From assembly GCA_902790465.1 (NCBI GenBank), contig CADASF010000005.1, forward strand, positions 148,622 through 212,621: 64,000 nt of DNA, written 5' to 3'. The notes under the pieces are model-generated. The model worked only from the letters and a program-made list of their open reading frames with translations. It was not told where the DNA came from and searched no databases. The first letter of the stretch is position 1, and each line of letters starts with the position of its first letter. The stretch is from an uncultured bacterium (GTDB lineage Bacteria; Vulcanimicrobiota; CADAWZ01). The translations under genes were made by a program, and so were the position numbers. Shown one piece after another: positions 6,591 to 64,000 of this stretch.

Positions 6591-7187
6591 TTATTGACCC
6601 ATTCCCTGAATACCAGCGATAATATTATTTGCATGGGCACCTTGACCATCTTGCTGTTCACCACCATAATTTATGAGTTCAGCAGCACCATTAAGATCGC
6701 CTTGGATCAAGAGTTCTGCAGCTTCTCTTACTTCTGGATCCATTTCTTGATCCTTCACAGGTTTCCAAATGTTATTTTTGAAATTATTTATGCTTTCTTC
6801 TACTCTTGCCTCTTTTTGGTTGGGAATCATTTTATCAATTCCCAATGGTTTTTGTTTATCAAGAACTACTTGTATCTGTTCCTTAATTCCTTTACTAATA
6901 TCTTTTTTTGCGTTAGCCTTTGCTTCTTCTTGGATTCTCTTGCCAACATCTATATCTTTATTTTCTGAAAATGGATTATTAGCTTGTACTTCATCACTCA
7001 TTTCAGTTTTGTCCTGCTGATTAAGACCTTGAGCAAGCATTCCTTCTGGCTTTGCTTGTTTATTTTCATTGTCAAGTCCCTGAATTTCCTTCATATCCTT
7101 TGAACCTTGCACGGCTTGGAAATCCTGTATGCCTTGCATTCCCATCATGCCCTGCATTCCGCCACCGATTGCACTGATACTATCCAT
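6591..7187 (-). CDS. Hypothetical Met/Gln/Gly-rich low-complexity protein (paralog A)
   Basis: The start was reassigned to MDSISAIGGGMQGMMGMQG, which has a GGAGG RBS 8 nt upstream (reverse strand). There is no signal peptide. The first ~60 nt are near-identical to paralog B. Confidence 0.5.
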   Translation of the reverse strand: MDSISAIGGGMQGMMGMQGIQDFQAVQGSKDMKEIQGLDNENKQAKPEGMLAQGLNQQDKTEMSDEVQANNPFSENKDIDVGKRIQEEAKANAKKDISKGIKEQIQVVLDKQKPLGIDKMIPNQKEARVEESINNFKNNIWKPVKDQEMDPEVREAAELLIQGDLNGAAELINYGGEQQDGQGAHANNIIAGIQGMGQ

Positions 7188-7294
7188 AATAAAAACCTCC
7201 ACAAAAATTTAGCCTTTATATATAAATGGAGCAGATATAATATTAACCTGCTCCATTTGTTTATCGAAAATCTATTTTAAAATTGTTTCAAGAA

Positions 7295-7942
7295 TTATTG
7301 CTGTGGAATCTGCATTCCTTGGATTCCAGCGACGATCTTGTCAGCATGTGATTCCTGTGCTTTTCCTACCTGCTGTTCTTGGTTGAGACCCTGTGCAGCA
7401 CCCTGTTCTTTCTGCTGTCCATTGAGAATCTGATCTGCTCCCTTGATGTCGCCTTGGATTACATGATCAGCAGCTTCTTTTACTGATGAATCTATTGGTG
7501 TACCATTCTGCTGAGCCATTCCGAGTTGCTGTTTGAGCATTTCTACTTTCTGATTTGTTCCCTGATGCTGACCCTGTTGACCTGGTCCCTGTACTTTTGC
7601 TTCATCAATGATTTGCTGTACTGTATCTTTAACCTGCTGGCTTATGTCTTGTTGTTGACCTTGGATTCCACCAACTTTTCCTGCTTCAGCAGCTGCTTGA
7701 GCACCATTTACTTCCTGTGCTTCATCGCTCATTTCTGTTTTATCCTGCTGATTGATTCCCTGAGCCTGCATTTCTTCTGGCTTTGGTTGTTTTTGAGCAT
7801 CTTTTTCAAGACCCTGCATTTCCTTCATATCTTTTGGACCCTGTACGCTCTGCATGTCCTGCATGCCACCTGGCATTCCAACCATACCTTGCATTCCCAT
7901 CATGCCTTGCATTCCGCCACCGATTGCATTGATACTATCCAT
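7295..7942 (-). CDS. Hypothetical Met/Gln/Gly-rich low-complexity protein (paralog B)
   Basis: The start is MDSINAIGGGMQGMMGMQGMVGMPGGMQ with a GGAGG RBS. It shares the DKTEMSDE and HVIQGD blocks with paralog A. Confidence 0.5.
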   Translation of the reverse strand: MDSINAIGGGMQGMMGMQGMVGMPGGMQDMQSVQGPKDMKEMQGLEKDAQKQPKPEEMQAQGINQQDKTEMSDEAQEVNGAQAAAEAGKVGGIQGQQQDISQQVKDTVQQIIDEAKVQGPGQQGQHQGTNQKVEMLKQQLGMAQQNGTPIDSSVKEAADHVIQGDIKGADQILNGQQKEQGAAQGLNQEQQVGKAQESHADKIVAGIQGMQIPQQ

Positions 7943-8102
7943 AACAAATCCTCCAATCAATATTTAAAAAACTTTCTATGGTTGAATTATATCACCTTAG
8001 AATCTAAAAAAAAACTATTTTTTATTAATAAAAAGTAAATAATGTAAATTTTTCGTTAATTTTTTAAAATAATTATTTACATTAAAATTAAAGATATTTA
8101 AT

Positions 8103-9423: not shown

Positions 9424-10689
9424 TTACTTATTAGAAAAAATTGCCTCTTTTGTCAATGTTGTCAAAAATTCTTTATTTGTCTTGGTTTTCTTTATCTGCT
9501 CTATCAACATCTCTGACATTTCATCACCAAAAACCTCTAATGCTCTTCTAAGAAGCCATGATTTTTTTAATTCAGATTCACTCAAAAGCAATTCTTCATG
9601 CCTTGTTCCAGATTTCTTTATGTCTATTGCAGGAAATATTCTTCTTTCAGAAAGTTTTCTTGAAAGATCAAGTTCCATATTTCCTGTTGCTTTGAATTCT
9701 TCAAAAATAACATCATCCATTTTAGAACCTGTTTCAACAAGTGCAGTTGCTATTATTGTCAAACTTCCACCAAATTCAAGATTTCTTGCAGACCCCAAAA
9801 ATCTTTTGGGCATTTTTAAGGCAGAAGTGTCAAGTCCTCCAGAAAGAGTTCTTCCTGTAGGTGGTGTAACTTGGTTGTAAGCTCTTGCAAGTCTTGTTAT
9901 ACTATCGAGCATAATTACGACATCTTTTCCAGATTCAACTAGTCTTTTTGCTTTTTCAATTACGAGTTCTGAAACATGTACATGCTGTTCTGGCGGTTCA
10001 TCAAAAGTAGAACTTATCACTTCTCCTTCAATAGAACGCTCCATATCTGTAACTTCTTCAGGTCTTTCATCTATTAAAAGAGCTATCAAAACTATATCAG
10101 GATAATTGGTTGTTATTCCATTTGCAATTTGTTTTAATAATGTTGTTTTACCTGCTTTTGGAGGAGCTACTATTAATCCCCTTTGTCCTTTGCCTATTGG
10201 GGCTAATATATCAATTATTCGAGTTGCTATATTTTCACTATTTGTTTCAAGTGTCAGTTTTTCATTTGGAAATATTGGAGTCAATTCATTAAAGTTGGGA
10301 CGTTTTTTAATGTCTTCAGGATTTAAAGAATTAACTCCTTGAATTTTTAGGAGTCCATAATATTTTTCACCTGCTTTTGGAGGTCTAACTTGACCTGATA
10401 CGATATCTCCCATTCTTAGATCAAATCTTCTTATTTGCGATTGAGAGACATAAATATCGTTAATACCAGGAAGATATGTTTTACCTCTTAAAAAGCCATA
10501 TCCATCTGGTAGAATTTCAAGGATTCCTGTTGAAAAAATAAGTCCCTGTTTTTGTGCTTTTTCTTCAAGAATTTCATATATCAATTCTTGTTTTTTCTTC
10601 TTTTGAGCTCCTGTGATTCCTATTTCTTTACAAATGTCAAGTAATTCATTTTTAGTCATATTTTCAAGATCTGCTATACTATCTGCCAT
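9424..10689 (-). CDS. rho: Transcription termination factor Rho
   Basis: It has the N-terminal Rho_N region ([27 protein letters not shown]), the RNA-binding [14 protein letters not shown] block and a Walker [13 protein letters not shown] motif. Confidence 0.9.
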
Positions 10690-12673: not shown

Positions 12674-13363
12674 TTAAATATTGGCAGTTGAAATTCTTCC
12701 TTCATCAAGATAATAAACTTTATCAGCATAAGCGGCAACTTTTGAATCATGAGTAACCATTACAGTTGTTACTCCTTGTTGTCTATTTACTATTTTTAAC
12801 ATATCCATAACTTCTCTTGTACTTTTTGAATCTAGATTTCCAGTAGGCTCATCTGCAAGTAAAAGCCCTGGATTATTGACAAGAGCTCTAGCTGTTGACA
12901 CTCTCTGCCTTTGTCCTCCAGATAATTTTGCAGTATCAGAATTCCATTTTGCTTCCATTCCAACGAGTTCAAGCATTTTCATTGCTCTTTCTTCTTGTTT
13001 TCCTACAAATGAATTTGCAAGTTGCATAGGAAGCATGACATTTTCTAATACAGATAATGTTGGAATAAGATAATAATTTTGAAAAATGAAACCTATATGT
13101 TCCAGTCTTATTTCTTCTCTTATATTTTCAGGAATTGTACATATATCTGTATTATCAAGATATATTTCTCCAAAATTTGGTTTATCTATACAGCCTAAAA
13201 GATGTAAAAAAGTCGATTTTCCTGTTCCAGAAGGTCCCATGATTGCAATAAATTCTTTATCTGCAATATCGAGATTTACATTTTCTAAAACTCTTATTTT
13301 TCCAAATTCGCCTTCCCAATATTTATAAATTCCCTTCATTCTAATTCTCATATTATCCTTCAC
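12674..13363 (-). CDS. ABC transporter ATP-binding protein (MacB/LolD family)
   Basis: It carries Walker A GPSGTGKST, the LSGGQRQRVSTARAL signature, Walker B LLADEPTGNLD and an H-loop VMVTHD. Confidence 0.85.
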   Translation of the reverse strand: MKDNMRIRMKGIYKYWEGEFGKIRVLENVNLDIADKEFIAIMGPSGTGKSTFLHLLGCIDKPNFGEIYLDNTDICTIPENIREEIRLEHIGFIFQNYYLIPTLSVLENVMLPMQLANSFVGKQEERAMKMLELVGMEAKWNSDTAKLSGGQRQRVSTARALVNNPGLLLADEPTGNLDSKSTREVMDMLKIVNRQQGVTTVMVTHDSKVAAYADKVYYLDEGRISTANI

Positions 13364-17800: not shown

Positions 17801-18442
17801 AATATCATGAAAATGAGTGCTGAAAGGGCAGTTGAAGAAAAACGAACTGCTGTTTTAGCTTTTGCAGCTCTTAAAGAAAAAATGAAAGAAGCAAAAGAAA
17901 AATTAGATAGCATGAAAAATGAAGTAAACATGCTTCAGGAGAAAATTCAAGAAACAGAATATAAATGGCAAACAGAAAATGCTTCAACTACTGCAAAAAT
18001 GCAACAGTTATCTGCTTCTGGAAATAAGCAAGAATATATAGCATTAAAGCAATCACTTTTGGAAAAGAAAGATGAGTATGATGATTTGGTAGATTCATCT
18101 AAATTGAGAATGAAAAGACTTGAAGAAGCTATTTCCAAGAGAAGTGAAGAATTTGAGGAATTGCAAAAAAGATATGAAGCATCTGAAAAAGAAATAGAAA
18201 GATTTGATAGACAGATAAGTAAGCCGACTTCTGAGGGAGATGAGATAAGAAAAAGAGTTGAAGAGGCAAATATGGAGAAGAAAACGCTTTATGAGGCTGT
18301 CATGAAAAATAGACCAGTAATAGAAAAAGAACTCAATAGAAGAATGGAAGAAAAAAGAAATAGAAAAGCAGAGGCTGAAGAAGAACGAGACCTTTATAAT
18401 AAATTTATATTTAGGAATATAGAAAAAAATTTAAATACCTAA
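14831..18442 (+). CDS. Large (1203 aa) HEAT-like repeat protein with a C-terminal ~250-aa coiled coil; function unknown
   Basis: It contains PBS-lyase/HEAT-type repeats (LRIQAAKALSDIGD; RRAAILALEKIADP). The C-terminus is a heptad-rich Lys/Glu coiled coil. It has no signal peptide. Confidence 0.6.
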   Translation: MNDQKFDTNESNASLSPEKEKKNFFSRVGDTVSLFFTKDTNKAIETIIDPEAPLFQRTAAIKSAVVKRNLDARIPLIEVVKGEYGANEELRIQAAKALSDIGDVYATDIKSSYLIDLLEIYLTTIDNKLSKEIGIIFLKAEGLPYIKFIGKTLITRFQIDDDVSSDAWQIFARALAFSYEFALNENIEKIRAELNSLPQNINKQVQVIEHGAYFVRRIINILDDSRKTLCDYMAKDPNGQKLSELLMYPSLTSTYHENSAELVKHITSIFDFVLHDKKELRDLAISELRTIETPIVYDSCKTLIMDPAPRYPDICEGLTGVITEAISRGDILARNIFISMANNPPVYCEAFFYSEVVRLSKLDEEFHAKMISVTKGFIKRSEASDKVIISMLRSVFSFNLTEENLEFLIYLVTGKVKVSIDVAVETVSLLVHLNKEDFPFYDKISKILKLSLQNKVPDEIKSRIISESKNNITDTSLSCLEIAAFLDTPTVSAEAIRAVFDVARSGDMKSDRFIAFLCKMLSDEKVLRDNISLSLAFLKNYKYRNSALRDEIAKLLSSNDQNFRFDALILSSKWLKNSEDEDEFIQQLKMFVGIIQNPEWKHNDIYQKVLDLFESFILSEEEKYKKIQNFLLNSIRSALGAKIQDNYKIAICRMFESILKKGNDDISQKAMILLEDVISSKDISTAVKLHAIEYFAVDRGEIVHILPQVVTALKDENYDNKSGILLILVKALDKVKKYTIKEKINALKQGQPVEICEHVKFEILMGMEICPILNDLLKLNFMNRELVQSALTLAKYMDYARTFVKFIFEFTNYPEDEIIRARAIETVGALIYPPYTQDEGEILLSIMKTAKDNKQPQHMRRAAILALEKIADPAFEDVLSEIALDSKTKEDLRILTINALSSLCDEHVNGTYKTILKDPNASWLIKESIVKVLNDSITFDMIDTMIDLMTNAPGTVFKNQIADAMKASGFENVVRIKELDTACANDMNKLNIMKMSAERAVEEKRTAVLAFAALKEKMKEAKEKLDSMKNEVNMLQEKIQETEYKWQTENASTTAKMQQLSASGNKQEYIALKQSLLEKKDEYDDLVDSSKLRMKRLEEAISKRSEEFEELQKRYEASEKEIERFDRQISKPTSEGDEIRKRVEEANMEKKTLYEAVMKNRPVIEKELNRRMEEKRNRKAEAEEERDLYNKFIFRNIEKNLNT

Positions 18443-23233: not shown

Positions 23234-23261
23234 GTTTGTTTGTCATTAATATAACTTGTTG

Positions 23262-23389
23262 TGTTATTTAAAAATAGTAGTTTTTCTTATAAAGTTCCAT
23301 AATTATTATTCTTAGTTTTTAGGTATAAGTCGCTCACTAGTTCTTTTTTTTCCGCATATTATAGTTATAATTGCAAGAATCGTTCGCCG
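23262..23389. repeat. ~125-bp intergenic repeat element, copy A (begins with the TAACTTGTTGTGTTATTTA motif)
   Basis: It is ~93% identical to 63818..63941. An inverted copy of the terminal motif (TAACTAACACAACGA) lies at 23435..23449. Confidence 0.8.
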
Positions 23390-23495
23390 ACTTACACCGT
23401 AAAAACTCTTTTACCTGCTAAATAGATAAAAAAATAACTAACACAACGATTTGAAATAATATTATAAAAAATGTTGAAAAGAAGGACTTAAAAAA

Positions 23496-29122: not shown

Positions 29123-30529
29123 ATGGGATTAATAAAAGCAGGAATTGATGCTGTAATGGGAACTTTAAAAGACCAATGGAAAGAATATTTCTATTGTGAA
29201 GCTCTTCCAGTTGATGTACTTGTAAGTAAAGGACAAAAGAAAGTACAAAGAGGCGGAAATAAAGGTGATGACAATGCTATAAGTGATGGTTCAGTAATTG
29301 CTGTAGCAGACGGTCAATTTATTATAATTGTTGAAAATGGACTTATTGTAGATTTTTCAGGAGAACCTGGAGAATTTGTATATAGAAACAATGTACAACC
29401 CAGTCTTTTTTCAGGAGAGGATGGTCTTGGTGAAAAATTGAAAAAGACTTTCTCTCAAATTGGAAAAAGATTCACATTTGGTGGGGAAACACCAGGAGTT
29501 CAAAGAGTTTATTTCTTCAACAAAAAAGAGATAATGGGAAACAAATATGGCACTCCAAATCCTGTTCCATTCAGAGTTGTTGACAAAAATATTGGATTAG
29601 ATGTTGACATATCAATAAGATGTCATGGTGAGTATTCTTACAGAATAACCGATCCTATGTTATTCTACAAAAATGTTTGTGGAAATGTAGAATATGAATA
29701 TAAGCGTTCACAGATTGACAGCCAGTTAAAATCAGAATTGATGACAGCTCTTCAACCTGCATTTGCAAAAATTTCCGAGATGGGAATAAGATATAGTGCA
29801 CTACCAGGTCACACATTTGAAATTGCAGATGCACTCAACGAAGTTCTTTCTAAGAAATGGAGAGAAAAAAGAGGAATTGAGATAGTTGAATTCGGAGTAA
29901 ATGGAGTAAATGCTTCTCCTGAAGATGAAGCTATGATCAAACAAATGCAGAAAAAAGCTGTCTACAGAAATGCAGATATGGCAATGGCTGGAATGGTAGA
30001 TGCTCAAAATGAAGCATTAGTAGGTGCAGCAAACAATAAAGCAGGAGCTATGCAGGGATTCATGGCAATGAATATGATGCCAGGTGGCGGTGGTGCCAAT
30101 TTGGGTAACCTCATAATGCAACAACAACAGATGCAACAACAGCAACAAATGCAACAGCAAGCTCCTCCAGCAGCTCAAAAAGCAGGTTGGACTTGTTCAT
30201 GTGGTGCTGTAAATACAGCTAAATTCTGTGCTGAATGTGGCAAACCACAACCAGCTCCAAAAGCAAGTTGGACTTGTTCATGTGGTGCTGTAAATACAGG
30301 TAAATTCTGTGCTGAATGTGGTGCAAAACAACCAGCTCCAAAAGCAAGCTGGACTTGTTCATGTGGTGCTGTAAATACAGGCAAATTCTGTGCTGAATGT
30401 GGTGCAAAACAACCACAAGACCTTCACTATAAATGTGATAAATGCGGTTGGGAACCAACACCTGGTGCAAAGATTCCAAAATTCTGTCCAGAATGTGGCG
30501 ATCCAATAAATGAAAACGATTTAGTTTAG
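29123..30529 (+). CDS. SPFH/Band-7-like protein (YdjI-like) with Met/Gln-rich linker and three tandem C-terminal zinc ribbons
   Basis: It has an N-terminal MGLIKAGIDAVMGT SPFH-like domain. The C-terminus repeats WTCSCGAVNTxKFCAECG three times, then a fourth CDKCG...CPECG ribbon. AAGGAGA RBS. Confidence 0.6.
   Translation: MGLIKAGIDAVMGTLKDQWKEYFYCEALPVDVLVSKGQKKVQRGGNKGDDNAISDGSVIAVADGQFIIIVENGLIVDFSGEPGEFVYRNNVQPSLFSGEDGLGEKLKKTFSQIGKRFTFGGETPGVQRVYFFNKKEIMGNKYGTPNPVPFRVVDKNIGLDVDISIRCHGEYSYRITDPMLFYKNVCGNVEYEYKRSQIDSQLKSELMTALQPAFAKISEMGIRYSALPGHTFEIADALNEVLSKKWREKRGIEIVEFGVNGVNASPEDEAMIKQMQKKAVYRNADMAMAGMVDAQNEALVGAANNKAGAMQGFMAMNMMPGGGGANLGNLIMQQQQMQQQQQMQQQAPPAAQKAGWTCSCGAVNTAKFCAECGKPQPAPKASWTCSCGAVNTGKFCAECGAKQPAPKASWTCSCGAVNTGKFCAECGAKQPQDLHYKCDKCGWEPTPGAKIPKFCPECGDPINENDLV
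30178..30414 (+). repeat. Three tandem 81-nt near-identical repeats encoding zinc-ribbon modules
   Basis: Repeat units begin at ~30178, 30259 and 30340, with only a few substitutions between them. Repeat symmetry produces a spurious antisense ORF. Confidence 0.9.
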
Positions 30530-31691: not shown

Positions 31692-31755
31692 TCTTTGAAG
31701 TAACATAAAAAAAAAGTGGATTGTGAATTTTCACTTTCCACTTTTTTTATTTTAT

Positions 31756-32883
31756 TTATTTTGTAAGCTCGTAGTAATCAACTCTATTATTATCTTTTAT
31801 TACAAGTAGCTTGTTTATTTCTTCAATAAAAGCAACAGGATATGGCTTTGAAAGTGTCAAAACTTTTTGCATTTTTCCATCTTGTCTTAGATATACATTG
31901 AATTCATTGCCTTTTTGACCATAAAACCAAACTCTGCCATCATTGAATATCTTTCCTGCTAAAGGATGTACCTTACTTGATATTTCTGTTTTTTCTCCAT
32001 TTGAAACGAGAAAAACCTTGTTTTCACCTTTATTAGAATTTGTTCCAAATAAGCATTTAGAAGCATCTGAAGATAAATCAAGAGGTTTTATTGCTTGTTT
32101 TGCTCCGTGTAATTTTTTAACTTCTCCATTTTTATTTACTAAAAATATATAATTTACAAAATTTTTATCAGTTGGTTTTGGTCTATTTGTTATTACACAT
32201 AGACAAGAGTCTGATTCATTTGTTTTTACAAAACTTGTCATCAATTTTTTTAGGTCTTCTTTATTTTTTACAATGGTGCTTCCTGTTTTTTCTATAAGTC
32301 CATTTTGTGTAAATACATTTGTCATAGAAAATGGGTCTGTACATATATCCATTATAACTGTATCTCTTACATAATGACCAGTATCCCATTTATCAAGGTA
32401 TGAATAGGCATTTGTATCATTAAAAAATGAAAAAGTAGAAATTGGAGAAATTGCAAATCCTTCTTTATCTTTTGCTGGATTTGAATATACTTCATTCCAT
32501 TTTTTTGTTTTTGTATTTAAAGTCCATAATTTACCAGGATATTTTGAATAGACAAGAGCATTATTGGCATTTGTTGATATAGCAAATTTATTGAAATCTG
32601 TAAAAGGACATGAACCTTCTCTTACTATAGATCTTTTAAAAGGATCATATATATGCCATCTCAACTTTTTTGTTGTTTTATTTCTACCCAAAAAGAATAT
32701 TTCACCTGTTTTTGAAGCTACAGAAGGTGCTAATAATTCATGTTTTATTTGTTCTTGTGTCTTCTGTTCAAGGTTTTCTTTTGTAAAAGATGTTGCTTCT
32801 TTCAAATTAATATCTTTTGCATGGGCAACCATTATTGAAAACAATCCAAAAATACACAAAAATAAAACAGCTATTTTTTTCAT
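31756..32883 (-). CDS. Secreted hypothetical protein (tandem paralog 1)
   Basis: It has a signal peptide MKKIAVLFLCIFGLFSIMVAHA. It is ~65% identical over its full length to the adjacent paralog and is 375 aa long. Confidence 0.55.
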   Translation of the reverse strand: MKKIAVLFLCIFGLFSIMVAHAKDINLKEATSFTKENLEQKTQEQIKHELLAPSVASKTGEIFFLGRNKTTKKLRWHIYDPFKRSIVREGSCPFTDFNKFAISTNANNALVYSKYPGKLWTLNTKTKKWNEVYSNPAKDKEGFAISPISTFSFFNDTNAYSYLDKWDTGHYVRDTVIMDICTDPFSMTNVFTQNGLIEKTGSTIVKNKEDLKKLMTSFVKTNESDSCLCVITNRPKPTDKNFVNYIFLVNKNGEVKKLHGAKQAIKPLDLSSDASKCLFGTNSNKGENKVFLVSNGEKTEISSKVHPLAGKIFNDGRVWFYGQKGNEFNVYLRQDGKMQKVLTLSKPYPVAFIEEINKLLVIKDNNRVDYYELTK

Positions 32884-32899
32884 ATATTTTCTCCTTTAA

Positions 32900-34027
32900 T
32901 TATTTTGTAAGCTCGTAATAATCAGCTCTTTTATTGTCTTTTATTACAAGAAGTTTGTTTACATCTTCAATAAAAGCGACTGGATAAGGCTTTGAAAGAG
33001 TTAAAACTTTTTGCATTTTTCCGTCTTTTCTTAAATATATGTTAAATTCATTTCCTTTTTGACCATAAAACCAAATTCGTCCATCATTAAATATATTTCC
33101 AGATAGAGGATGTATGTTATCAAAAATTTTTATTTTTTCATTGTTTGAAACAAGATAAACTTCGCTTTCTCCTTTTAAAGATATTGTTCCAAACATATAT
33201 TTAGAAGCATCAGAAGAAAGAGCAAGAGGTTTTATCATATTTGGACATCCATGCACTTTTTTTACATTGCCATTTTTATTGACCAAGAATATGTAATTTA
33301 CAAATCCTTTATCTGTCTGTCTTGGTCGATTTGTTATAACACAAAGACATGAATCTGAACTATTTGTTGTTATGAATGTTGTCATCAATTTTTTGATATC
33401 TTCTTTATTTTTGACAATAACATTTCCTGTTTTTTCTATCAATTCTCTTTGGGTATATGTCTTATTCATAGAAAATGGATTTACCGCAATATTAGTTATT
33501 ACTGTATCTCTTACATAATGATCTTTATCCCATTTATCAAGATATGAATAGGCATTTGTATCATTAAAAAATGAAAAAGATGAAATTGGAGAAATTGCAA
33601 GTCCTTCTTTATTGTTTTCAGGATTTGAATAGACTTCATTCCATTTTTTCTTATCTGTATTTAATACCCAAAGTCGCCCTGGATATTTTGAATAAACAAG
33701 AGCATTACCTGCATTTGTTGAAATAGCAAATTTATTAAAATCGGTAAAAGGGCAATCGCCTTCTTTGATAATTTTCTTTTTAAAAGGATTGTAAATGTGC
33801 CATCTTAATTTTTTTGTATTTTTATTCCTGCCAAAAAAGAATATATCACCTGTTTTTGAAGCAAGACATGGACCTAATAAACTATGTTTTATCTGTTCTT
33901 TTGTTTTTTGTTCGAGGTTTTCTTTTGTAAAATATGTAGATTCTTTCAATTCACCTTTTTTTTCAGCTGAAATTGCTGTAGAGAACATAGTAATTATAAG
34001 TAATAACATTACTGCTATTTTTTTCAT
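32900..34027 (-). CDS. Secreted hypothetical protein (tandem paralog 2)
   Basis: It has a signal peptide MKKIAVMLLLIITMFSTAISA and the same length and block structure as paralog 1. Confidence 0.55.
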   Translation of the reverse strand: MKKIAVMLLLIITMFSTAISAEKKGELKESTYFTKENLEQKTKEQIKHSLLGPCLASKTGDIFFFGRNKNTKKLRWHIYNPFKKKIIKEGDCPFTDFNKFAISTNAGNALVYSKYPGRLWVLNTDKKKWNEVYSNPENNKEGLAISPISSFSFFNDTNAYSYLDKWDKDHYVRDTVITNIAVNPFSMNKTYTQRELIEKTGNVIVKNKEDIKKLMTTFITTNSSDSCLCVITNRPRQTDKGFVNYIFLVNKNGNVKKVHGCPNMIKPLALSSDASKYMFGTISLKGESEVYLVSNNEKIKIFDNIHPLSGNIFNDGRIWFYGQKGNEFNIYLRKDGKMQKVLTLSKPYPVAFIEDVNKLLVIKDNKRADYYELTK

Positions 34028-36487: not shown

Positions 36488-36669
36488 TTTGATCTCCTAA
36501 AAAACCAAATTATATTTTGATTTTTATATTATAATTTTAACTTTTATAATTTCACTAAATTTTCTCTTTTTTCCTGCTTATTTGATTTTACAGCAATTTT
36601 CAAAAATACTAGGGCGTGTTGGTAAAGTCCATAAGAAAAATAATAATTATGGCACTTTTTAATACAACT

Positions 36670-38004
36670 TCACTTTTTGTTTGCCGTAAATAATATTGAA
36701 ATTGCAAGTCCAAAAATCATTAAAATTGGATAGAACATATACTGCATTATGGAAAATGAACTAACTGCCACAGATGAAGCAAGACTTGTTGCAATAAGAA
36801 TTTGAGCTCCATATGGGATTACTCCTTGTACACAGCAGGAAGTTATGTCTAATAGACTTGCTGTTCTCTGTGGTGAAACATCGTATTTTTGTGACAATTC
36901 TTTTGCAATTCCTCCAGATGTTATGATTGCAACAGTATTATTTGCTGTAAATAGATTTGTCATTCCTACTAAAAAGCAGATTCCTACTTCACAACTTCTT
37001 TTATCTTTAATTCTTTTTCCTGTTTCTTTGATTATATATGTTATTCCACCATGACTTTTTACAAGAATTAACAGACCGCCTGCAAGCATTGCAACTATAA
37101 GAGTTGTTGCCATTTCAACTGTTCCATCACCTATATAGATAAATCCTGTGAAAATATCAAATATTCCATAACATACCCCTGTAATTATGTTAAATGCTGT
37201 TCCTGCAAGGAGTAGAAACATTACATTTATTCCCAATATTCCACAAATTAAAAGCAATATATATGGGAGAACTTTTATGATGTTATCAAGTCCAATACTT
37301 TCTAAATTTGTTGTCCCTGTTGCATTTGAAAACATTGGCAACATATATATTAAAGCACATAATATAGCAGGTATTGCAACTATTTTAAAGTTACATATCA
37401 TCTTATCTTTCATTTCTACATTTTGACTTCTTGTTGAAGCTATTGTTGTATCTGAAATCAATGAGAGATTATCTCCAAACATTGCTCCACCTACTGTTGC
37501 ACCTATTAATACTGCAGGATTTAACCCTAATGTCTGTGATAGTGATACTGCGATTGGAACTATTGCAGCTATTGTTCCACATGATGTTCCAACAGCAAGA
37601 GATATCAATGCAGATGTAACAAATAATCCAGAAGTTGTTAAATTAGGTGGTATTATATGACAGGCTATTTTGACAGCTGAATCTATTCCACCAACTGCTT
37701 TTGATGTTGCAGTGAATGCTCCTGCTAATATGAATATGAGGCACATTATCATTATGTCTTTGTGTCCCATACCTTGTGCAAATACTTCTAATTTTGTTCC
37801 TAATTTTTCTCTTGTATTTAAAGCTAAAGCAGTTGCAGAAGACATTAAAAATGCAACTGTCATTGGCACTTTGGAAAAATCTTTTGTTGCTATTGCAAAT
37901 CCAAAATAGAATATTACAAAAACTATAAATGGAAGTAATGATCTAAATCCTAATTCACGATATATTTTTGTTTCTTTGTTATCCTGTTCCAATTTGTCCC
38001 TCAT
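36670..38004 (-). CDS. Na+/H+ antiporter NhaC-family membrane transporter
   Basis: It is a ~12-TM polytopic protein. Its 444-aa length and block pattern are consistent with the NhaC family. The call rests on recall of family signatures, not an exact motif. Confidence 0.55.
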   Translation of the reverse strand: MRDKLEQDNKETKIYRELGFRSLLPFIVFVIFYFGFAIATKDFSKVPMTVAFLMSSATALALNTREKLGTKLEVFAQGMGHKDIMIMCLIFILAGAFTATSKAVGGIDSAVKIACHIIPPNLTTSGLFVTSALISLAVGTSCGTIAAIVPIAVSLSQTLGLNPAVLIGATVGGAMFGDNLSLISDTTIASTRSQNVEMKDKMICNFKIVAIPAILCALIYMLPMFSNATGTTNLESIGLDNIIKVLPYILLLICGILGINVMFLLLAGTAFNIITGVCYGIFDIFTGFIYIGDGTVEMATTLIVAMLAGGLLILVKSHGGITYIIKETGKRIKDKRSCEVGICFLVGMTNLFTANNTVAIITSGGIAKELSQKYDVSPQRTASLLDITSCCVQGVIPYGAQILIATSLASSVAVSSFSIMQYMFYPILMIFGLAISILFTANKK

Positions 38005-41103: not shown

Positions 41104-41209
41104 GGGGCTGTGAAAAAAGTATTTTTTTATATAATTTTAGTAAATTAACTCGTTGTGCTAGTTATTTTTATTTATTACTTATTAAAATGATATAGCTGAG
41201 TAGAGACAT

Positions 41210-41809
41210 ATGACTACAATACAAGAAGCAAAAATTGGTGATTATGTAAAATTTGGTAGTTATCCACAGAGTGCAAAAGGTATAGTTCGACCTATTGAAT
41301 GGTTGGTTTTATCAAAAGAAGAAAATAAAATGTTGTTAATATCTCGTTATGGTCTTGAAGCAAGGTATTTTATTAAAGCAAAGTGTTTTGACAGTAATTC
41401 AAATGATTGGAAAAATAGTGAAATTCGCAAGTGGTTGAATGGTGAGTTTTACAATAAAGCCTTTGATGAAAATGAGAAAACAAATATAAATCCTTTTGAT
41501 GGTGATAATTTATTTTTGTTGAGTAAGGAAGAAGTAGAAAAATATTTTGTTAATGCTAAAGAAAGAAAATGTAAAGCTACTAAACATGCTGTGAAAAATT
41601 GTGCTTTGATTGATAATGGTTGCAATTATTGGTGGCTTCCTAAGACTTTGGTTAATGATAATAATGGTTGTAGCTCTTGGTGGCTTCGCTCTCCTCGTCC
41701 TAATATTAGTAATATTGTCTATAATGTAGATAGTGTAGGTTCTATCGTATGTAGCCGTGTTGATGATAGTTATAATTTTGTGAGACCCGCTTTATGGATA
41801 AAACTATAG
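41210..41809 (+). CDS. Uncharacterised conserved-domain protein (GRYPQ...WWLRSP...RPALWI family), paralog 1
   Basis: It shares GSYPQ, EWLVLS, RKWLNGEFYN, WWLRSPRPN and VRPALWIKL with the C-terminal domain of the 42953 gene. It has no signal peptide. Confidence 0.55.
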   Translation: MTTIQEAKIGDYVKFGSYPQSAKGIVRPIEWLVLSKEENKMLLISRYGLEARYFIKAKCFDSNSNDWKNSEIRKWLNGEFYNKAFDENEKTNINPFDGDNLFLLSKEEVEKYFVNAKERKCKATKHAVKNCALIDNGCNYWWLPKTLVNDNNGCSSWWLRSPRPNISNIVYNVDSVGSIVCSRVDDSYNFVRPALWIKL

Positions 41810-42237: not shown

Positions 42238-42502
42238 AAATGTTTCTCCCTCCTTTGTTTCTTTTAAATATTTTACAGGTTCTCTCAATTCGCTCTTTCA
42301 AGTTCTGCTCCTGCACAAACTCTTCCTTTAATTATATGTGAATAAAGGTAAAGAATCAATAAAATTTATAATATTATTTCTAATAATTCAAAAGTCAAAA
42401 AATTGACTTGTGTTATGTAAATTTAACTCGTTGTGTTAGTTAATAAAAGTAAATAAAAATTTGCTCTAAACTATCCAATATATGCCTGTATACTGCCACT
42501 TT

Positions 42503-42672
42503 GTCATTGCGAGGCTTTAGCCGTGGCAATCTAAGCCTGTAAATTATAAATTTACTTAAAAATTGAGTCGATCGTCTGTATTTGGAATATTGTCCTCAAT
42601 CTACTTAATAAATTACTAAATTTAAATTAAGCGTTTGAGATTGCCACGGTCGCACAGCTCCCTCGCAATGAC
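42503..42672. other. Long-range inverted repeat / candidate structured ncRNA: two perfect 12-bp helices enclosing ~105 nt
   Basis: GTCATTGCGAGG (42503-14) pairs with CCTCGCAATGAC (42661-72). CCGTGGCAATCT (42521-32) pairs with AGATTGCCACGG (42638-49). A small internal loop lies between the helices and there is an AT-rich interior hairpin (ATTGAG...CTCAAT). No ORF lies inside. Confidence 0.4.
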
Positions 42673-42784
42673 ATCGCTTCTAAATAGTGGCTATTTTGGT
42701 TACGGAAATCAATTTTTGTTATTGATTTTGCTGTTAAATAATTTTCAAAAATACGATACAATGTTAATATTTTTTATTTTGTAG

Positions 42785-42952: not shown

Positions 42953-44059
42953 ATGACGAAGAAATTTTTATTTCTTACACTATGCCTTTTTATCCTCGGC
43001 ACATTCATTTCAGCCTGTGGCGGAAGTGGCAAAACAACTCCACCAGACAACTCTGCATATTACTATTTATTGGCTCAACAGAATAACAACAATCAGCAAG
43101 ATAATAATCAAGAACAAAATAATCAAGAACAAAATAATCAAGAACAAAATAACCAAGAACAAAATAATCAAGAACAAAATAACAACGAACAACAAGTCGA
43201 TCCAGCTTTGCCAAGTCTTGAAGTTAATCCAAAAGAAATTTATGTAGTGGTTGATGAGGAAGATAATATAGTAGTTACACTTGAAGGAAAAGTTGTAACA
43301 GAAGATGTTACTTACAAATCTGATGATGAATCGATCGCAACAGTTGATAAAGGAACAGTAAAGGGCTTAAGAGTTGGTACTACTAATATAACAGTATCTC
43401 TTGAAGGTGCAAACAGTGCAGTTTTTGAAGTAAATATTGTAGAAAATCCATTTAAAGAAGCCCAAAAAGGTGATGAAGTGGAATTTGGTCGTTATCCTCA
43501 GACCGCAGAAGGTGAAGTTCAACCTATAAAATGGCTTGTATTGTCAAGAGATGACGAAAATAAACAATTATTGGCAATTTCAGTTGATGGTCTTGATGCA
43601 CTTCGTTTTGATGATGATTCAGATGGTAGTACAACAAATGTTTGGGAAAAGAGTGTAATTCGTGGTTGGTTGAATGGCGATGGTTTTTATAATAGAGTTT
43701 TAGAAGATGAAACAGCAGTATTTACTGATGGTGAGAAAAGTTTAATAAAGCCAGTAGTTCTTGCAGATGTATATATGACAGAGCCAGATAATGTATTTTT
43801 GTTGAGTAAGAAAGAGGCAGAGGATTATTTTGCCGATGATTCTGCTCGAATGTGTAAAGCAACCGAATATGCAAAGGCAGATGGTGCTAGGATATCAACA
43901 TCTGGAAGTTATGCAGGTAATTGTTCTTGGTGGCTTCGTTCTCCTAGTCCTAATTTTACTAATCGTGTCTATTATGTTGTTGGTGATGGTGCTAATCTCT
44001 TCGACAATGTTGATAATACCAATAATTCAGTTCGGCCCGCTTTATGGATCAATCTTTAA
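42953..44059 (+). CDS. Lipoprotein with N/Q/E-rich linker, a bacterial Ig-like group 2 domain and a C-terminal uncharacterised conserved domain (paralog 2)
   Basis: It has a lipobox (FISACGGSG) and five (NNQEQ) repeats. A Big_2-like block (SIATVDKGTVKGLRVGTTNITV) is followed by a C-terminal FGRYPQ/KWLVLS/WWLRSPSPN/VRPALWINL domain. AGGAGA RBS. Confidence 0.6.
   Translation: MTKKFLFLTLCLFILGTFISACGGSGKTTPPDNSAYYYLLAQQNNNNQQDNNQEQNNQEQNNQEQNNQEQNNQEQNNNEQQVDPALPSLEVNPKEIYVVVDEEDNIVVTLEGKVVTEDVTYKSDDESIATVDKGTVKGLRVGTTNITVSLEGANSAVFEVNIVENPFKEAQKGDEVEFGRYPQTAEGEVQPIKWLVLSRDDENKQLLAISVDGLDALRFDDDSDGSTTNVWEKSVIRGWLNGDGFYNRVLEDETAVFTDGEKSLIKPVVLADVYMTEPDNVFLLSKKEAEDYFADDSARMCKATEYAKADGARISTSGSYAGNCSWWLRSPSPNFTNRVYYVVGDGANLFDNVDNTNNSVRPALWINL
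43104..43195 (+). repeat. Coding 15-nt tandem repeat (AATAATCAAGAACAA, about 5-6 copies) encoding (NNQEQ)n in the lipoprotein linker
   Basis: Direct reading of 43090-43200. Confidence 0.9.
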
Positions 44060-45263: not shown

Positions 45264-48200
45264 TTACATCATCTTTAATGCGAAGTTGGAGAATTTGTAG
45301 ATATTTCTGCCATCGACTGAAAGCCAGCCGTCACAGATAATTACTTTGTCATCATTTGATTTTGAAGTTACCCAAACTCTGACTGTTACCAAATCATCTT
45401 TTGGGATTACCTGTCCTCTATATGTCCACAAATGTTTACATTCACATAATGGAGAGATAAATCCCTCTGATTTCTCCGCTTCTTTACTCCAGAATTTTAT
45501 TGACATATACTTCATCAATGAAATCATTGATTCAAGACCGAGTGATCCAGGTATTACTGGATCCTGATAGAAATGAGCTTTGAAGAACCAATCTGAAGGT
45601 CTTACTTTCATAGTTCCTTCAATATAGCCCAATCCTTTTGGACCGCCATGTGGTGCAAAAACTGTTATATTATCTATCATTTTTAACATAGATTTTGGCA
45701 ATATCCTATGTTCTGGATATATAATATTTCGTTCTGAATCTTTGTCATTGCCTACAGGCGGAATCTTTGCGTCCAATATACCTATTTGATTTTTTAGTGC
45801 CTCTTTTGAGAAGAAGCCAAAATATGTCCAACCTTTATATACACTTCCTATTTCATCATAGACATCAAAGAAGTAATTTTGAATGACCATTCCTGCCGAT
45901 TTTGAGACTGTTTCAAGTTTTACATCTGTATGTAATATCTTTGTGTTTTTGTTTACAGGTCTTTCAAGATGACCATAACCACCTAAATTTCTAAATGACA
46001 GATCAAAATTTTCGGTAAGTGCAGAACCGACATAGGCAGCAAGCCAACCGCAAGGCTGAAGTGCAACTTCAAGAAGTACAGAAAATGGCATTAATGATGA
46101 AGAACTCTGTTCAAAATACCATTCATTACCATTCATATCATATTGAGCAGAGGCTGATGCAGGAGTTTTCATTACCCATTGTTCACCTGCTACTTTTACG
46201 ATTCTGTCAAGGAATTTATATGGATCGCCTGGTAATCTTGCGATTATTCTGTCTTTGTCAAATACTGCATATTTACTGCCAAATGCTTCTGAAGGATTGC
46301 CAATAGCAAATGCAGTTATCGAGGCATTGTCAAAAACTGGAGTTTGTGGAGTTTTGCCAACATTTTTAATATTTCGCCATATCTTTTCCAAGCGTTCTTT
46401 AGATGAACCTTTTAACTGAATTGACATATTCAGCATTTCGACAATAGGTTTTCCATCTGCAAACATCAAGGCATCTGCTATTGCATAAGGATATGGATTA
46501 TAGCCAATTTCTTTTATTGAGATTCTAAAAGATGATTTTTTAGTTGATTCTATGACTTGACCTCTACATTTTAGAGAGCTTGAAACTCCCTGTATTGGCT
46601 CCCAAACAGTGTCTTTAGCTGAATCAATCCAACCAGCTCTCATCAAGAAAATTCTGAGTGTGTGCATGCAACATTCATACATCAATGTACCTGGCATGAC
46701 ATTGTCATCTGAGAAGTGGCATGTCAAGAACCAGTCATCTGGATGGATATCGAGTTCAGATTCAATGCTTCCTATTCCAAATCTGCCACCCGTTGGATTT
46801 AGGTTAATAACCCTGTCGAGAAGTTTCATGTATTTATGTCTTGGTAATGTCAATGGGTCTTCACAGTCCATATAATCAAAAGACGATCCAAAACATGCAG
46901 AAATTTTGCCTTTTCTCAATTCGGCTATTTCGGTATCTGCATAAGATTCTTCATACATTGGGACAAATGGTTTAAAGCCGTCTTTTATCAGTCCTTTTTC
47001 AGGGCGTAAGTCAAGGGCTGTGTGGATAATTCCTTTGCCTTCGTCAAGTTGTTGTTGTGTGAAGAAGCCTGCACAGCCATTTGTCATTGACATCAATTTT
47101 TTAGTGCCGACAAAACTTTCAAAATTGAAGTAGAACAGCCAAACCGATCCTTGTGTAAAGAATCTTTCAATATTTATTTCATATCTTATCGTTTCACCGA
47201 CTTTTGGAAGGTGATCATGGAATTGAATCGAGGCATTTAACAATCTATAGACAGCAAGACCTTTTGTCTTTTTGTCAATACCCAACCAGCCAGATAAAAA
47301 TAGATCAGATTGACCCGCTTCAACAGCAACACAAGTTGGAATAATGCCATTGTCCAAATACCAAGCATTTTCTTTTATATCATGTTCTGTAACTGTTGAA
47401 CCTGATGTCAGAGAAAGTGGTTCACCAGAAACACTTAAGATCCTATCCGCAAGCATTAATGGCTCATCAGGAAGTCTTACTCTTGTTGGATAGCTATCTA
47501 TCTCCTCAAACATTTTACCCAAAACTTTACCAATAGACCCTGTGGCAAACTCCATGCATGCCTCTCTATCCATAAATATCTTTTTGTCGCTTGCGTTCTT
47601 ATCTCTGCGATCGATTTTGTCTCTGCTACTTGTTTGGTAATTGCCATCTACAAAGTTTTTCTCTTGGCTTGCGTTCTTATCTCTGCGATCGATTTCGTTT
47701 TGGCTAACTTTTTCATAACTGCCATATACATTATTTTCTTTTTGGCTCTCTTGCTTATTTCTGCGATCGACATTGCCAAGATATATATTTTGTGAAATTT
47801 CTGTTGGGCAATCCAAAACAAGGGAAATCAAATCTTGTGAGAAGTTCAAATATTCGCCATGAGCTTCTGCCGTCTTCTGTTCCATTTCAAATATTCTTTT
47901 TAGTACGCTATTTGCTGTTTCTGTAGTTTGGCTAATTTCAATTTGTGGCATTTTTTCTTTGCTCTCTTGTTTGTATATGCTACCTAATTCGTTTTGAGTT
48001 ACTTCTTTGTCTCTAAAATTTATAAAGTTTTCTCTATGCTCGTTGTTAATATTTTGTGATATTACAGGCTTACTTTCTTTTTCTTTACTTAATTTATTGT
48101 CTCTTTGCTCTATTGTTTTACTGGAATTTGTCTTTTTTGAATTGTATTCAGAACTTTTTTCACTAAAAGCTCTTTTTGATAGAGAAATTTTCATCAGATT

Positions 48201-51872: not shown

Positions 51873-52076
51873 GTTATCTATTATAAATTATTCTATATTA
51901 TATTATTTAAGAAAATAAAAAATCCCCTTTTATATAAAAAGGATTTTGTTTAAACCTTATTCATTTTAATAAAAAAATTAACATTTCTTTAATTAAGATT
52001 CTCTTGAATTGATTCTTTTATTAATGTATAATAAAATTTAATATGAGAAAATTTTAAAGATTGGAATTTTCATCTT

Positions 52077-54059: not shown

Positions 54060-54086
54060 CTTCAGTCTTAAAAGCCTGGAATCAAT

Positions 54087-63486: not shown

Positions 63487-63817
63487 CTTTTATCTTGAAG
63501 GGGCTGTGAAAAAATAAGTTGGTTTTATCTGCTTTCGCAACTTTTTGGGTGCAATACGCTCACTTTAACATTTTTCTCTTTTTATTTTTCTAATTTTATT
63601 TAAAATAGAGAATATTTTCAGTAGGAGATTTCTTTTTAGATACTACTACGAGAAAAAGTGATGCAGTTCGCTGTATTGTACCGCACAAAAGTTGCTCATT
63701 TAGAGTTTTTTCACAGCTCCATTTGGAAGCACGGAAATTAATTTTTTTAGTTCATAATAATTTTCAAAAATACTATTTTTTTATTTTGTATTAGTATGTT
63801 TGAAAATTTATTTAAAG

Positions 63818-63941
63818 TAACTTGTTGTGTTAGTTAAAAAGAGTAGTTTTTTATAAAGTGCCATAATTATTATTCTTATTTTTTAGGTATAAGTCGCTCA
63901 CTAGTTCTTTTTTTTCCGCATATTAGTTATAATTGCAAGAA
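63818..63941. repeat. ~125-bp intergenic repeat element, copy B
   Basis: It aligns to 23262..23389 (TAACTTGTTGTGTTAGTTAAAAAGAGTAG...TAGGTATAAGTCGCTCACTAGTTC...AATTGCAAGAA). Confidence 0.8.
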
Positions 63942-64000
63942 ACTACTATGGAAAAAAAACATACATATCGTTCCTGTATTTTTCCTCCTTGGAGCAAATA

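What the first reader, a model, noticed from the sequence alone, without database searches (positions are those of the whole stretch)
23262..23449. Interspersed ~125-bp intergenic repeat with inverted terminal motif (second copy at 63818-63941)
A ~125-bp sequence (TAACTTGTTGTGTTA[G/T]TTAAAAA...TAGGTATAAGTCGCTCACTAGTTCTTTTTTTTCCGCATATTA...AATTGCAAGAA) occurs upstream of mpl and again downstream of valS, at ~93% identity. In the first copy, its leading 15-19-nt motif reappears in inverted orientation ~155 bp further on (TAACTAACACAACGA at 23435-23449). This gives a MITE-like arrangement with terminal inverted repeats. The element could alternatively be a conserved sRNA gene or a promoter module. 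The window ends before the right side of the second copy can be seen.
Basis: seen in the sequence. Interest (0 to 1): 0.55.

Follow-up and report, generated by a model that had tools for sequence, protein, structure and literature searches.

The report
Small transposon (MITE) with IS982-type ends
The repeat is a roughly 225-bp non-coding "hitch-hiker" transposon (a MITE) whose ends match those of an IS982-family insertion sequence; it is present upstream of mpl in this strain and absent from a sister strain, so it is a real but ordinary kind of mobile element.

Summary

- **Two copies.** Copy 1 is window 23253-23456. Copy 2 is 63820 to past the window end. It is complete in an identical contig, L007 13007-13304.
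- **No transposase.** The canonical form is 222-226 bp, has no ORF of 20 aa or more inside it, and folds as a long imperfect hairpin.
- **Ends match an IS.** The 19-21-nt end motif is the terminal inverted repeat of a 1123-bp IS982-family insertion sequence, which has at least six copies in Romboutsia ilealis. The match is 22/22 nt.
- **Matching target-site duplications.** That IS makes 6-7-bp AT-rich duplications (TAATTA, TAAATTA). The small element is flanked by TAAAGTA (copy 2), TAAGTTA (a third insertion in a rumen Candidatus Xenobia MAG) and TAATAT (copy 1).
- **Empty site.** A sister strain (Mpl 99% identical) lacks copy 1 and carries a single TAATAT at exactly that junction.
- **Open points.** No cognate transposase was found in about 77 kb of this genome. 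The interior is not IS-derived. It is a lineage-specific palindromic module that also occurs without these ends.
- **Effect on neighbours.** Any effect on mpl expression is untested.

Verdict: a new member of a known kind. Interest is low to moderate.

The parts
23247..23252 (.). Left copy of the direct repeat TAATAT flanking copy 1 (target-site duplication)
   Evidence: The empty allele in L033 has a single TAATAT at this junction.
23253..23456 (+). MITE copy 1, upstream of mpl. It is 204 nt here and 226 nt in other assemblies of the same locus, because the window lacks 22 nt after about 23378.
   Evidence: Alignments. Profile hit at E=3e-58. This exact segment is absent from L033.
23254..23272 (+). 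Left terminal inverted repeat of copy 1 (ACTTGTTGTGTTATTTAAA)
   Evidence: It matches the IS982-type IS left end ACTCGTTGTGCTAGTTAAA.
23316..23405 (+). Internal palindromic core. The left arm is TTTTTAGGTATAAGTCGCTCAC. The right arm is GTTCGCCGACTTACACCGTAAAAA. The loop holds a TATAAT (23366-23371).
   Evidence: Arms located. Folds of the full copies give z = -7.1 as RNA and -3.8 as DNA.
23435..23451 (-). Right terminal inverted repeat of copy 1 (reverse complement AATCGTTGTGTTAGTTA). It is followed by 5 extra nt (TGAAA) before the direct repeat.
23457..23462 (.). Right copy of the direct repeat TAATAT flanking copy 1
63813..63819 (.). Left copy of the 7-bp target-site duplication TAAAGTA of copy 2
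   Evidence: The same 7-mer directly follows the right end of the element at L007 13305-13311.
63820..64000 (+). MITE copy 2, downstream of valS, cut by the window end. The complete element is L007 13007-13304 (298 nt), including an extra insertion of about 80 nt in the right arm (L007 about 13163-13243).
36635..36679 (-). Decayed fragment of the left subterminal part of the element (...AAAGTGCCATAATTATTATT...)
   Evidence: Inverted repeats I20/I24. BLAST 84% over 43 nt. Profile E=9.5e-4.
41145..41165 (+). Solo copy of the terminal-repeat motif (TTAACTCGTTGTGCTAGTTAT), 45 nt upstream of the ORF at 41210
42423..42443 (+). Solo copy of the terminal-repeat motif (TTAACTCGTTGTGTTAGTTAA), preceded by a second, decayed copy (ACTTGTGTTATGTAAA)

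Best explanation
[quoted passage not shown] It is a non-coding element of about 225 bp whose 18-22-bp terminal inverted repeats (ACTCGTTGTGCTAGTTAA...) are those of an IS982-family insertion sequence.

**Proposed mechanism.**
1. An IS982-type DDE transposase, supplied in trans, binds the two terminal repeats.
2. It moves the element into an AT-rich target of the type TAA..TA.
3. Repair of the 6-7-bp staggered cut leaves the flanking direct repeats.

**Interior.** It is not a deleted IS. It is a lineage-specific long imperfect palindrome that also exists in this lineage without these ends. The element therefore looks like IS982 ends wrapped around a host palindromic module.

**State of the window's copies.** Both are old and decaying:
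- the independent insertions are 87-92% identical;
- the right ends are degenerate;
- one copy has a 22-nt deletion and the other an insertion of about 80 nt.

Copy 1 is still polymorphic between strains.

**Shown:** ends identical to an IS, target-site duplications, an empty site, no coding capacity, several insertion contexts.

**Inferred:** mobilisation in trans by an IS982-type transposase, the origin of the interior, and any effect on mpl.
For: 1. **The end motif is an IS end.** In L016, TTAACTCGTTGTGCTAGTTAA lies about 75 nt upstream of a 313-aa ORF. That ORF matches Pfam DDE_Tnp_1_3 at 2e-22. It matches NCBIfam NF033520 'IS982 family transposase' at 259.6 bits against a cut-off of 130. 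An inverted copy of the motif follows the ORF.

2. **The IS is well defined.** A transposase 87% identical to that ORF (P0043) sits in at least 6 copies of a 1123-bp IS on the Romboutsia ilealis chromosome. The ends are ACTCGTTGTGCTAGTTAAA...TTAACTAGCACAACAGAT. The flanking duplications are TAATTA, TAAATTA or TAATTTA.

3. **The match is exact.** The left 22 nt of the L001 element, including 3 flanking nt, are identical to the IS left end.

4. **The small element has target-site duplications.** They are TAAGTTA/TAAGTTA in L001, TAAAGTA/TAAAGTA for copy 2 and TAATAT/TAATAT for copy 1. At 32% G+C, a perfect 7-mer match has a chance of about 1e-4.

5. **There is an empty site.** L033 comes from a strain 96-98% identical in nucleotide sequence in the flanks. 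It joins window ...23252 directly to 23463... with one TAATAT.

6. **The contexts differ.** They are upstream of mpl, downstream of valS, and downstream of a gene ending in a SecA-like CPCGSGKKYKNCCG motif in a Candidatus Xenobia MAG.

7. **There is no coding capacity.** No ORF of 20 aa or more lies inside the element; the only hit is a 58-aa reverse-strand ORF that overlaps its last 35-40 nt. tblastn finds no transposase similarity.

8. **There is a precedent.** IS982-derived MITEs of about 240 bp are described in Cardinium (PMC9769881).
Against: - **No cognate transposase.** None was found in the window, in the 10-kb extension, or in any locus of this lineage (tblastn). The close homologues that were looked up sit in Clostridia-like gene contexts.
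- **Low observed copy number.** There are two full copies, one fragment and three solo ends in about 77 kb. An exact-match scan of 185,579 species genomes with a 19-mer from the core found only two other loci. Two scans of JGI metagenomes found none.
- **Imperfect ends.** The right ends of both window copies are imperfect. Copy 1 has 5 unexplained nt (TGAAA) between its right end and the direct repeat.
- **No internal IS sequence.** The interior shares nothing with the IS beyond the ends, so derivation from that IS rests on the ends and the duplications alone.
- **Ambiguous direction.** The empty allele could in principle be a deletion between the TAATAT repeats rather than the ancestral state.
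Confidence: 0.88

Rival explanations
1. It is a duplicated regulatory or promoter module. The 19-21-nt motif would be an operator for a dimeric DNA-binding protein (TTAACT-N9-AGTTAA), and the 125-bp block a promoter region copied in front of two genes.
For: The motif has internal dyad symmetry and also occurs alone in intergenic DNA at 41146, 42424 and L007 18000. All three full copies point towards the downstream gene. The loop holds a TATAAT. In the occupied mpl allele a promoter-like match appears, with -35 CTAACA in the right end, a 16-nt spacer and TATTAT in the flank. That match is absent from the empty allele.
Against: The same motif is the end of a transposase-bearing IS in another phylum. 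The copies are flanked by 6-7-bp direct repeats, and a sister strain has the precise empty site. One solo motif lies between convergent genes. Promoter-like matches are no more frequent than in shuffled sequence: 3 found against 3.1 expected. A side effect on transcription remains possible but is not the origin of the repeat.
Confidence: 0.05
2. It is a small RNA gene or a cis-acting structured RNA. The long hairpin would be the functional product, and the repeat would be dispersed because the RNA gene is duplicated.
For: The fold is very stable, with z = -7.1 as RNA. Related hairpins in the lineage keep the stem through changes on both sides, with a conserved bulge.
Against: No Rfam family matches, even at E up to 10. 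No promoter plus intrinsic-terminator pair is predicted. Both strands fold equally well, as expected of a DNA palindrome. The window's copy 1 has lost half of the apical stem and copy 2 has about 80 nt inserted in the right arm, which argues against constraint on an RNA. Palindromic DNA repeats can keep their arms complementary without any RNA function.
Confidence: 0.04
3. It is a REP/BIME-like palindromic repeat spread by a Y1 (RAYT or IS200/IS605-type) transposase acting on single-stranded hairpins. The IS982-like ends would be incidental.
For: The palindromic core occurs without IS982 ends, nested inside other palindromes (hairpin at 63497-63723; L002 1640-2020). It has a conserved bulged T and a conserved mismatch. 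Such features are typical of hairpins recognised as single-stranded DNA.
Against: Y1-mediated insertion does not make target-site duplications (established knowledge of IS200/IS605). Here 6-7-bp duplications flank the outer IS982-type ends. No Y1 transposase gene was seen in the surveyed sequence, and no GTAG-type guide tetranucleotide is evident. This rival could still hold for the core module alone.
Confidence: 0.03

Closest known systems
MITECca01/MITECca02 of Cardinium cOegib, derived from ISCca4 of the IS982 family (PMC9769881)
   Same: Both are about 240-bp non-coding elements whose terminal inverted repeats match an IS982-family IS. Both lack a transposase gene and are confined to one lineage.
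   Different: The Cardinium MITEs keep a few subterminal bases of their parental IS and coexist with intact parental copies at high copy number. Here the interior is an unrelated palindromic module, no parental IS was found in the host lineage, and the observed copy number is low. The end sequences themselves were not compared with ISCca4.
The 1123-bp IS982-family insertion sequence of Romboutsia ilealis and relatives (transposase P0043; also on IMG/VR contigs L014 and L016)
   Same: The terminal 18-22 nt are identical (ACTCGTTGTGCTAGTTAA). Both make 6-7-bp AT-rich target duplications that start with TAA.
   Different: The IS is 1123 bp and encodes a 313-aa DDE transposase, and it lives in Clostridia. 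The window element is about 225 bp and non-coding, and sits in a rumen member of Vulcanimicrobiota (Candidatus Xenobia-like).
Classical bacterial MITEs that fold as hairpins and affect neighbouring genes (Neisseria Correia elements, pneumococcal RUP, enterobacterial ERIC). This comparison is from general knowledge and was not tested here.
   Same: All are small, intergenic, bounded by terminal inverted repeats and target duplications, and strongly self-complementary. All can potentially supply promoter parts or RNA hairpins to adjacent genes.
   Different: They belong to other IS families (RUP is linked to IS630-Spn1, and Correia elements make a TA duplication), have different ends and have much higher copy numbers. 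No regulatory effect has been shown for the present element.

Membership tests
MITE (non-autonomous IS-derived element) | Small size (under about 300-500 bp) with no transposase ORF | tested here: met
   The elements are 226 nt (L003), 222 nt (L001) and 298 nt (copy 2, with its extra insert). No ORF of 20 aa or more lies within the element; a 58-aa reverse-strand ORF overlaps only its last 35-40 nt. tblastn with the IS982 transposase finds nothing.
MITE (non-autonomous IS-derived element) | Terminal inverted repeats | tested here: met
   In L001 the two ends match at 19 of 20 positions including the 3 flanking nt (TTAACTCGTTGTGCTAGTTA / TTAACTCGTTGTGCTAATTA). Copies 1 and 2 keep 13-15 nt.
MITE (non-autonomous IS-derived element) | Ends match those of an autonomous IS | tested here: met
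   22/22 nt are identical to the left end of the 1123-bp IS982-family IS.
MITE (non-autonomous IS-derived element) | Target-site duplication of the length made by the parental IS | tested here: met
   The MITE has 7, 7 and 6 bp. The IS has 6-7 bp at nine insertions read.
MITE (non-autonomous IS-derived element) | Presence/absence polymorphism with a precise empty site | tested here: met
   The L033 junction is exact and has one TAATAT. Copy 2 was present in every contig examined.
MITE (non-autonomous IS-derived element) | Multiple dispersed copies in one genome | tested here: inconclusive
   There are two full copies, one fragment and three solo ends in about 77 kb. The rest of the genome could not be searched.
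MITE (non-autonomous IS-derived element) | Cognate transposase available in the same cell | not testable with these tools
   None was found in the surveyed 77 kb or in loci L001 and L002.
IS982 family (for the parental IS) | Transposase matches the curated IS982 model above its cut-off | tested here: met
   NF033520 scores 259.6 bits against a cut-off of 130, E=2.7e-77. Pfam DDE_Tnp_1_3 matches at 2e-22.
IS982 family (for the parental IS) | About 1-kb element with a single ORF, terminal inverted repeats and short direct repeats | tested here: met
   The IS is 1123 bp with one 313-aa ORF, inverted ends and 6-7-bp duplications.
Rfam RNA families | Covariance-model match at or near the gathering score | tested here: not met
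   Only tRNAs pass the gathering score in the window. The best sub-threshold hits on the element are chance-level.

The most novel reading that the evidence does not exclude
The palindromic interior is not passive filler. It would be an independent structured module specific to this lineage. Its scaffold is TTTTTRGGT-N6-CGCTCAC ... GTTCGCYG-N6-ACCG, with a conserved bulged T and a conserved wobble or mismatch position. Three stem positions change on both sides between the MITE core and the hairpin at 63497-63723.

The module occurs in at least three different 'shells': inside IS982-type ends, inside GGGGCTGTGAAAAAA...TTTTTTCACAGCTCC ends, and nested in L002. It could be a new kind of hairpin element, mobile or functional, that an IS982-type transposase has captured and now spreads. 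The ends are identical to those of a Clostridial IS, which would then record cross-phylum traffic of mobile DNA in the rumen.
Probability: 0.12. Interest if true: 0.5.

Novelty: new member of a known kind. Interest (0 to 1): 0.27.

Why it matters
The result gives a firm annotation for an otherwise puzzling intergenic repeat in an uncultured rumen lineage (Vulcanimicrobiota, Candidatus Xenobia-like). It appears to be an early documented MITE there.

Its ends are identical to those of an IS that is common in gut Clostridia. This suggests that IS traffic crosses phyla in the gut or rumen and can leave orphan MITEs behind.

Copy 1 sits 40 nt upstream of the mpl start codon and is polymorphic between strains. 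That gives a natural pair of alleles for testing whether such an insertion changes expression of a peptidoglycan-recycling gene.

In practice, repeats of this kind break MAG assemblies. One contig (L006) ends inside the element.

Tried and rejected
- **Rfam.** A gathering-threshold scan of the window and permissive scans of both copies gave only tRNAs and chance hits.
- **Promoter and terminator scans.** Matches were no more frequent than in shuffled sequence.
- **Species-genome scan.** An exact scan with the 19-mer GGTATAAGTCGCTCACTAG found only two loci, L001 and L002.
- **JGI metagenome scans.** The same 19-mer and a degenerate core-scaffold pattern both found nothing.
- **IMG/VR scans.** The core scaffold and a pair of ends 165-195 nt apart found nothing. 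A scan with the end motif alone is what led to the IS.
- **Plasmid and phage BLAST.** The MITE against plasmids and the IS against phages gave no match.
- **Synteny in the sister genus.** Loci with Mpl 66-69% identical have a different gene order upstream of mpl, so they could not serve as empty sites. They carry no end motif.
- **Empty allele for copy 2.** ClpP-anchored contigs all carry the element.
- **Parental IS in the host.** Two transposase homologues on long contigs were looked up, and both lie in Clostridia-like contexts.
- **CIRCE/HrcA operator idea.** This was considered for the motif from memory and dropped, because spacing and half-sites do not fit and the IS match explains the motif.

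Full report
**1. The observation**

The stretch 23252-23379 aligns with 63818-63941. There are 4 mismatches and two 2-nt gaps in 128 columns, and similarity is lost sharply on both sides. The repeat finder recovers the same pair (D12 and D17).

The leading motif recurs inverted at 23435-23453. Allowing up to 3 mismatches, the 19-mer TAACTTGTTGTGTTAGTTA is found 5 times in the window against 0.08 expected.

**2. The full element**

An exact scan of one genome per species with a 19-mer from the conserved core found two loci, both in rumen MAGs. L001, titled Candidatus Xenobia bacterium, holds a complete element of about 222 bp. Its ends are almost perfect inverted repeats: TTAACTCGTTGTGCTAGTTA ... 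TAATTAGCACAACGAGTTAA. Its interior contains both the sequence that follows the 125-bp block in copy 2 and the sequence that follows it in copy 1.

Contigs carrying the window's exact Mpl protein show the same locus with 22 more nucleotides than the window (AATTACTATGGAAAAAAAACAT). Against one of these contigs (L004), that gap is the only difference in 21.4 kb. The window's copy 1 is therefore a full element with a very recent internal deletion, or possibly an assembly slip.

L007 is 100% identical to window 50814-64000 and continues past the window end. It shows copy 2 as a complete 298-nt element that ends in ...TAACTAACACAAC. An extra segment of about 80 nt is inserted in its right arm.

**3. 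The end motif is the end of an IS982-family insertion sequence**

A scan of IMG/VR contigs with the degenerate motif gave eight hits. Two of them, L014 and L016, carry the exact 21-mer TTAACTCGTTGTGCTAGTTAA in intergenic DNA.

- In L016 the motif lies about 75 nt upstream of a 313-aa ORF.
- The ORF matches Pfam DDE_Tnp_1_3 at 2e-22.
- It matches NCBIfam NF033520 'IS982 family transposase' at 259.6 bits against a cut-off of 130.
- An inverted, slightly diverged copy of the motif follows the ORF.

Homologues at 71-96% identity are very numerous, and those that carry names are from Romboutsia and Paraclostridium. On the Romboutsia ilealis chromosome LN555523 at least six copies were read, along with copies on other contigs. 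The IS is 1123 bp with ends ACTCGTTGTGCTAGTTAAATTTTTC ... TTAACTAGCACAACAGAT. Each copy is flanked by a 6-7-bp duplication (TAATTA, TAAATTA or TAATTTA). The left 22 nt of the L001 element, including 3 flanking nt, are identical to the IS left end.

**4. Footprints of transposition**

| Insertion | Left flank and end | Right end and flank |
|---|---|---|
| L001 | TAAGTTA\|ACTCG... | ...CGAGT\|TAAGTTA |
| Copy 2 | TAAAGTA\|ACTTG... | ...CTCCC\|TAAAGTA |
| Copy 1 | TAATAT at 23247-23252 | TAATAT at 23457-23462 |

At 32% G+C, a perfect 7-mer match has a probability of about 1e-4.

The 99%-identical representative of the Mpl cluster lies on a 2.2-kb contig, L033, from a strain 96-98% identical in nucleotide sequence. 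There the terminator of the upstream HEAT-repeat gene is followed directly by ...GTCATTAATAT|TATAAAAAATG... and then mpl. A script confirmed that L033 joins window position 23252 to 23463 with nothing in between. That is a precise empty site with one copy of the direct repeat.

Copy 2 is present in all contigs reached through ValS or ClpP. The spacer between valS and the next gene is constant at 667 nt.

**5. What the element does not contain**

- No ORF of 20 aa or more lies within the element; the single listed ORF (58 aa, reverse strand, running out of mpl) overlaps only its last 35-40 nt.
- tblastn finds no similarity to the transposase.
- No Rfam family matches.
- No promoter or terminator signal exceeds chance.

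Similarity to the IS is limited to the ends.

**6. The interior**

The interior is a long imperfect palindrome:

TTTTTAGGTATAAGTCGC..TTTTTTTTCC [loop with TATAAT] GGAAAAAAAA..GCTGACTTACACCGTAAAAA

It folds far better than shuffled sequence, with z = -7.1 as RNA on one strand and -6.2 on the other, and -3.8 as DNA for the L003 copy.

A homologous core with a different stem sequence lies in the 225-nt palindrome just after valS (63497-63723, z = -6.6). Two further cores are nested in L002. None of these has IS982-type ends.

Between the MITE core and the valS hairpin, three stem positions change on both sides. A bulged T and one wobble or mismatch position are kept. This can be read directly.

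I take this as evidence that the interior is a pre-existing palindromic module of the lineage, not a remnant of the IS. Arm-to-arm complementarity in DNA palindromes does not by itself show an RNA or protein-binding function.

**7. Census and host**

A profile built from three copies finds the following in the window: the two full copies, a fragment at 36635-36679, and weak hits at the solo ends (41147-41169, 42426-42452). One more solo end lies in L007 at 18000-18034.

About 80 kb from sister-genus genomes (Mpl 66-69% identical) carries no end motif. The three independent full insertions are 87-92% identical.

The host is a low-G+C rumen bacterium. Its named Mpl relatives are labelled Candidatus Eremiobacterota or Vulcanimicrobiota. 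The L001 record is labelled Candidatus Xenobia, a class of Vulcanimicrobiota.

No IS982-type transposase was seen in any sequence of this lineage available here. The two homologues on long contigs that I looked up are in Clostridia-like contexts.

**8. Mechanism**

The best-supported explanation is a non-autonomous element mobilised in trans by an IS982-type DDE transposase. The transposase would recognise the 18-22-bp ends and insert into AT-rich TAA..TA targets with a 6-7-bp staggered cut.

- Shown: ends identical to an IS, duplications of the right length, a precise empty site, several insertion contexts, and no coding capacity.
- Inferred: the identity and present availability of the transposase. 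The decayed right ends and the internal deletion and insertion suggest that the window's copies are old and may no longer be mobile.

**9. Possible effect on neighbours (speculative)**

Copy 1 sits between the terminator of the HEAT-repeat gene and mpl, and it ends 40 nt before the mpl ATG. In the occupied allele the scan finds -35 CTAACA (inside the right end), a 16-nt spacer and -10 TATTAT (in the flank). No such site is found in the empty allele.

IS982-family elements are reported to create fusion and outward promoters (PMC9330008). However, the match is only 9 of 12 and lies within chance expectation. Copy 2 shows nothing similar.

**10. Comparison with known elements, and verdict**

IS982-derived MITEs of about 240 bp are already described in Cardinium (PMC9769881). 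This element is therefore a new member of a known kind, found in a new host lineage. Two modestly unusual features are an interior that is not IS-derived and ends identical to an IS that is abundant in another phylum.

Noticed in passing
window 63497-63723: A 225-nt nested palindrome starts 11-14 nt after the valS stop codon, with outer arms GGGGCTGTGAAAAAA / TTTTTTCACAGCTCC (DNA fold z = -6.6). Its inner core is homologous to the MITE interior but has a different, compensated stem sequence. It could be another MITE-like family or the valS terminator.
   Followed up: partly
window 41104, 63500; L002 2015(-); L007 17068(-): The short motif GGGRCTGTGAAAAAA recurs in intergenic DNA, sometimes alone. 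At 41104 it lies 40 nt before a solo IS982-type end. Its meaning is unknown.
   Followed up: partly
window 42440-42735; L002 about 1455-1607: Another conserved intergenic element has a large inverted repeat (GTCATTGCGAGG..CCGTGGCAATC / GATTGCCACGG..CCTCGCAATGAC). It is 82-85% identical between the window and the RUG13696 MAG and has no Rfam match at the gathering score. It starts right after the solo end at 42423.
   Followed up: partly
L002 1640-2020 (- strand): A palindrome of about 380 nt has at least three nested layers. One core hairpin sits in the loop of another, which suggests repeated insertion of palindromic elements into each other.
   Followed up: partly
window about 23378 (compare L003/L004 about 9880-9901): A 22-nt deletion (AATTACTATGGAAAAAAAACAT) removes half of the apical stem of MITE copy 1. 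It is the only difference between the window and contig L004 over 21.4 kb. It is either a very recent slippage at the hairpin or an assembly artefact.
   Followed up: partly
L007 13163-13243 (begins at window about 63976): An extra segment of about 80 nt lies inside the right arm of MITE copy 2. It contains its own small hairpins (GGAGCAAATAAGCTCC; CTCCTAAATTTTTAATTTAGGAG, which scores as terminator-like on the minus strand). No other copy was found.
   Followed up: partly
window 53985-54767: A cluster of eight tRNA genes on the plus strand includes a near-identical tandem pair (54548-54620 and 54695-54767).
   Followed up: no
window 30171-30415: Three tandem 81-nt coding repeats are 88-90% identical. 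Each encodes a CxC...CxxC zinc-ribbon-like unit (WTCSCGAVNT.KFCAECG).
   Followed up: no
window 43073-43192: A 15-nt tandem coding repeat gives a low-complexity Q/N/E-rich tract inside the ORF 42953-44059.
   Followed up: no
window 31743-32403 vs 32887-33547; 6685-7211 vs 7437-7966; 41504-41744 vs 43787-43994: Three pairs of neighbouring paralogous gene segments are 70-86% identical at the DNA level, which indicates local gene duplications.
   Followed up: no
window 45264-51872 (- strand): A 2202-aa ORF lies here. On the matching contig it carries ketoacyl-synthase, acyltransferase and tandem FabA domains, like a PfaA-type polyunsaturated fatty acid or polyketide synthase. This is unusual for a rumen bacterium with a small genome.
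   Followed up: no
L006 position 1: One metagenome contig ends inside the MITE, 219 nt upstream of mpl. This illustrates that the repeat breaks short-read assemblies, and it may explain why exact-match scans of MAG collections find so few copies.
   Followed up: no
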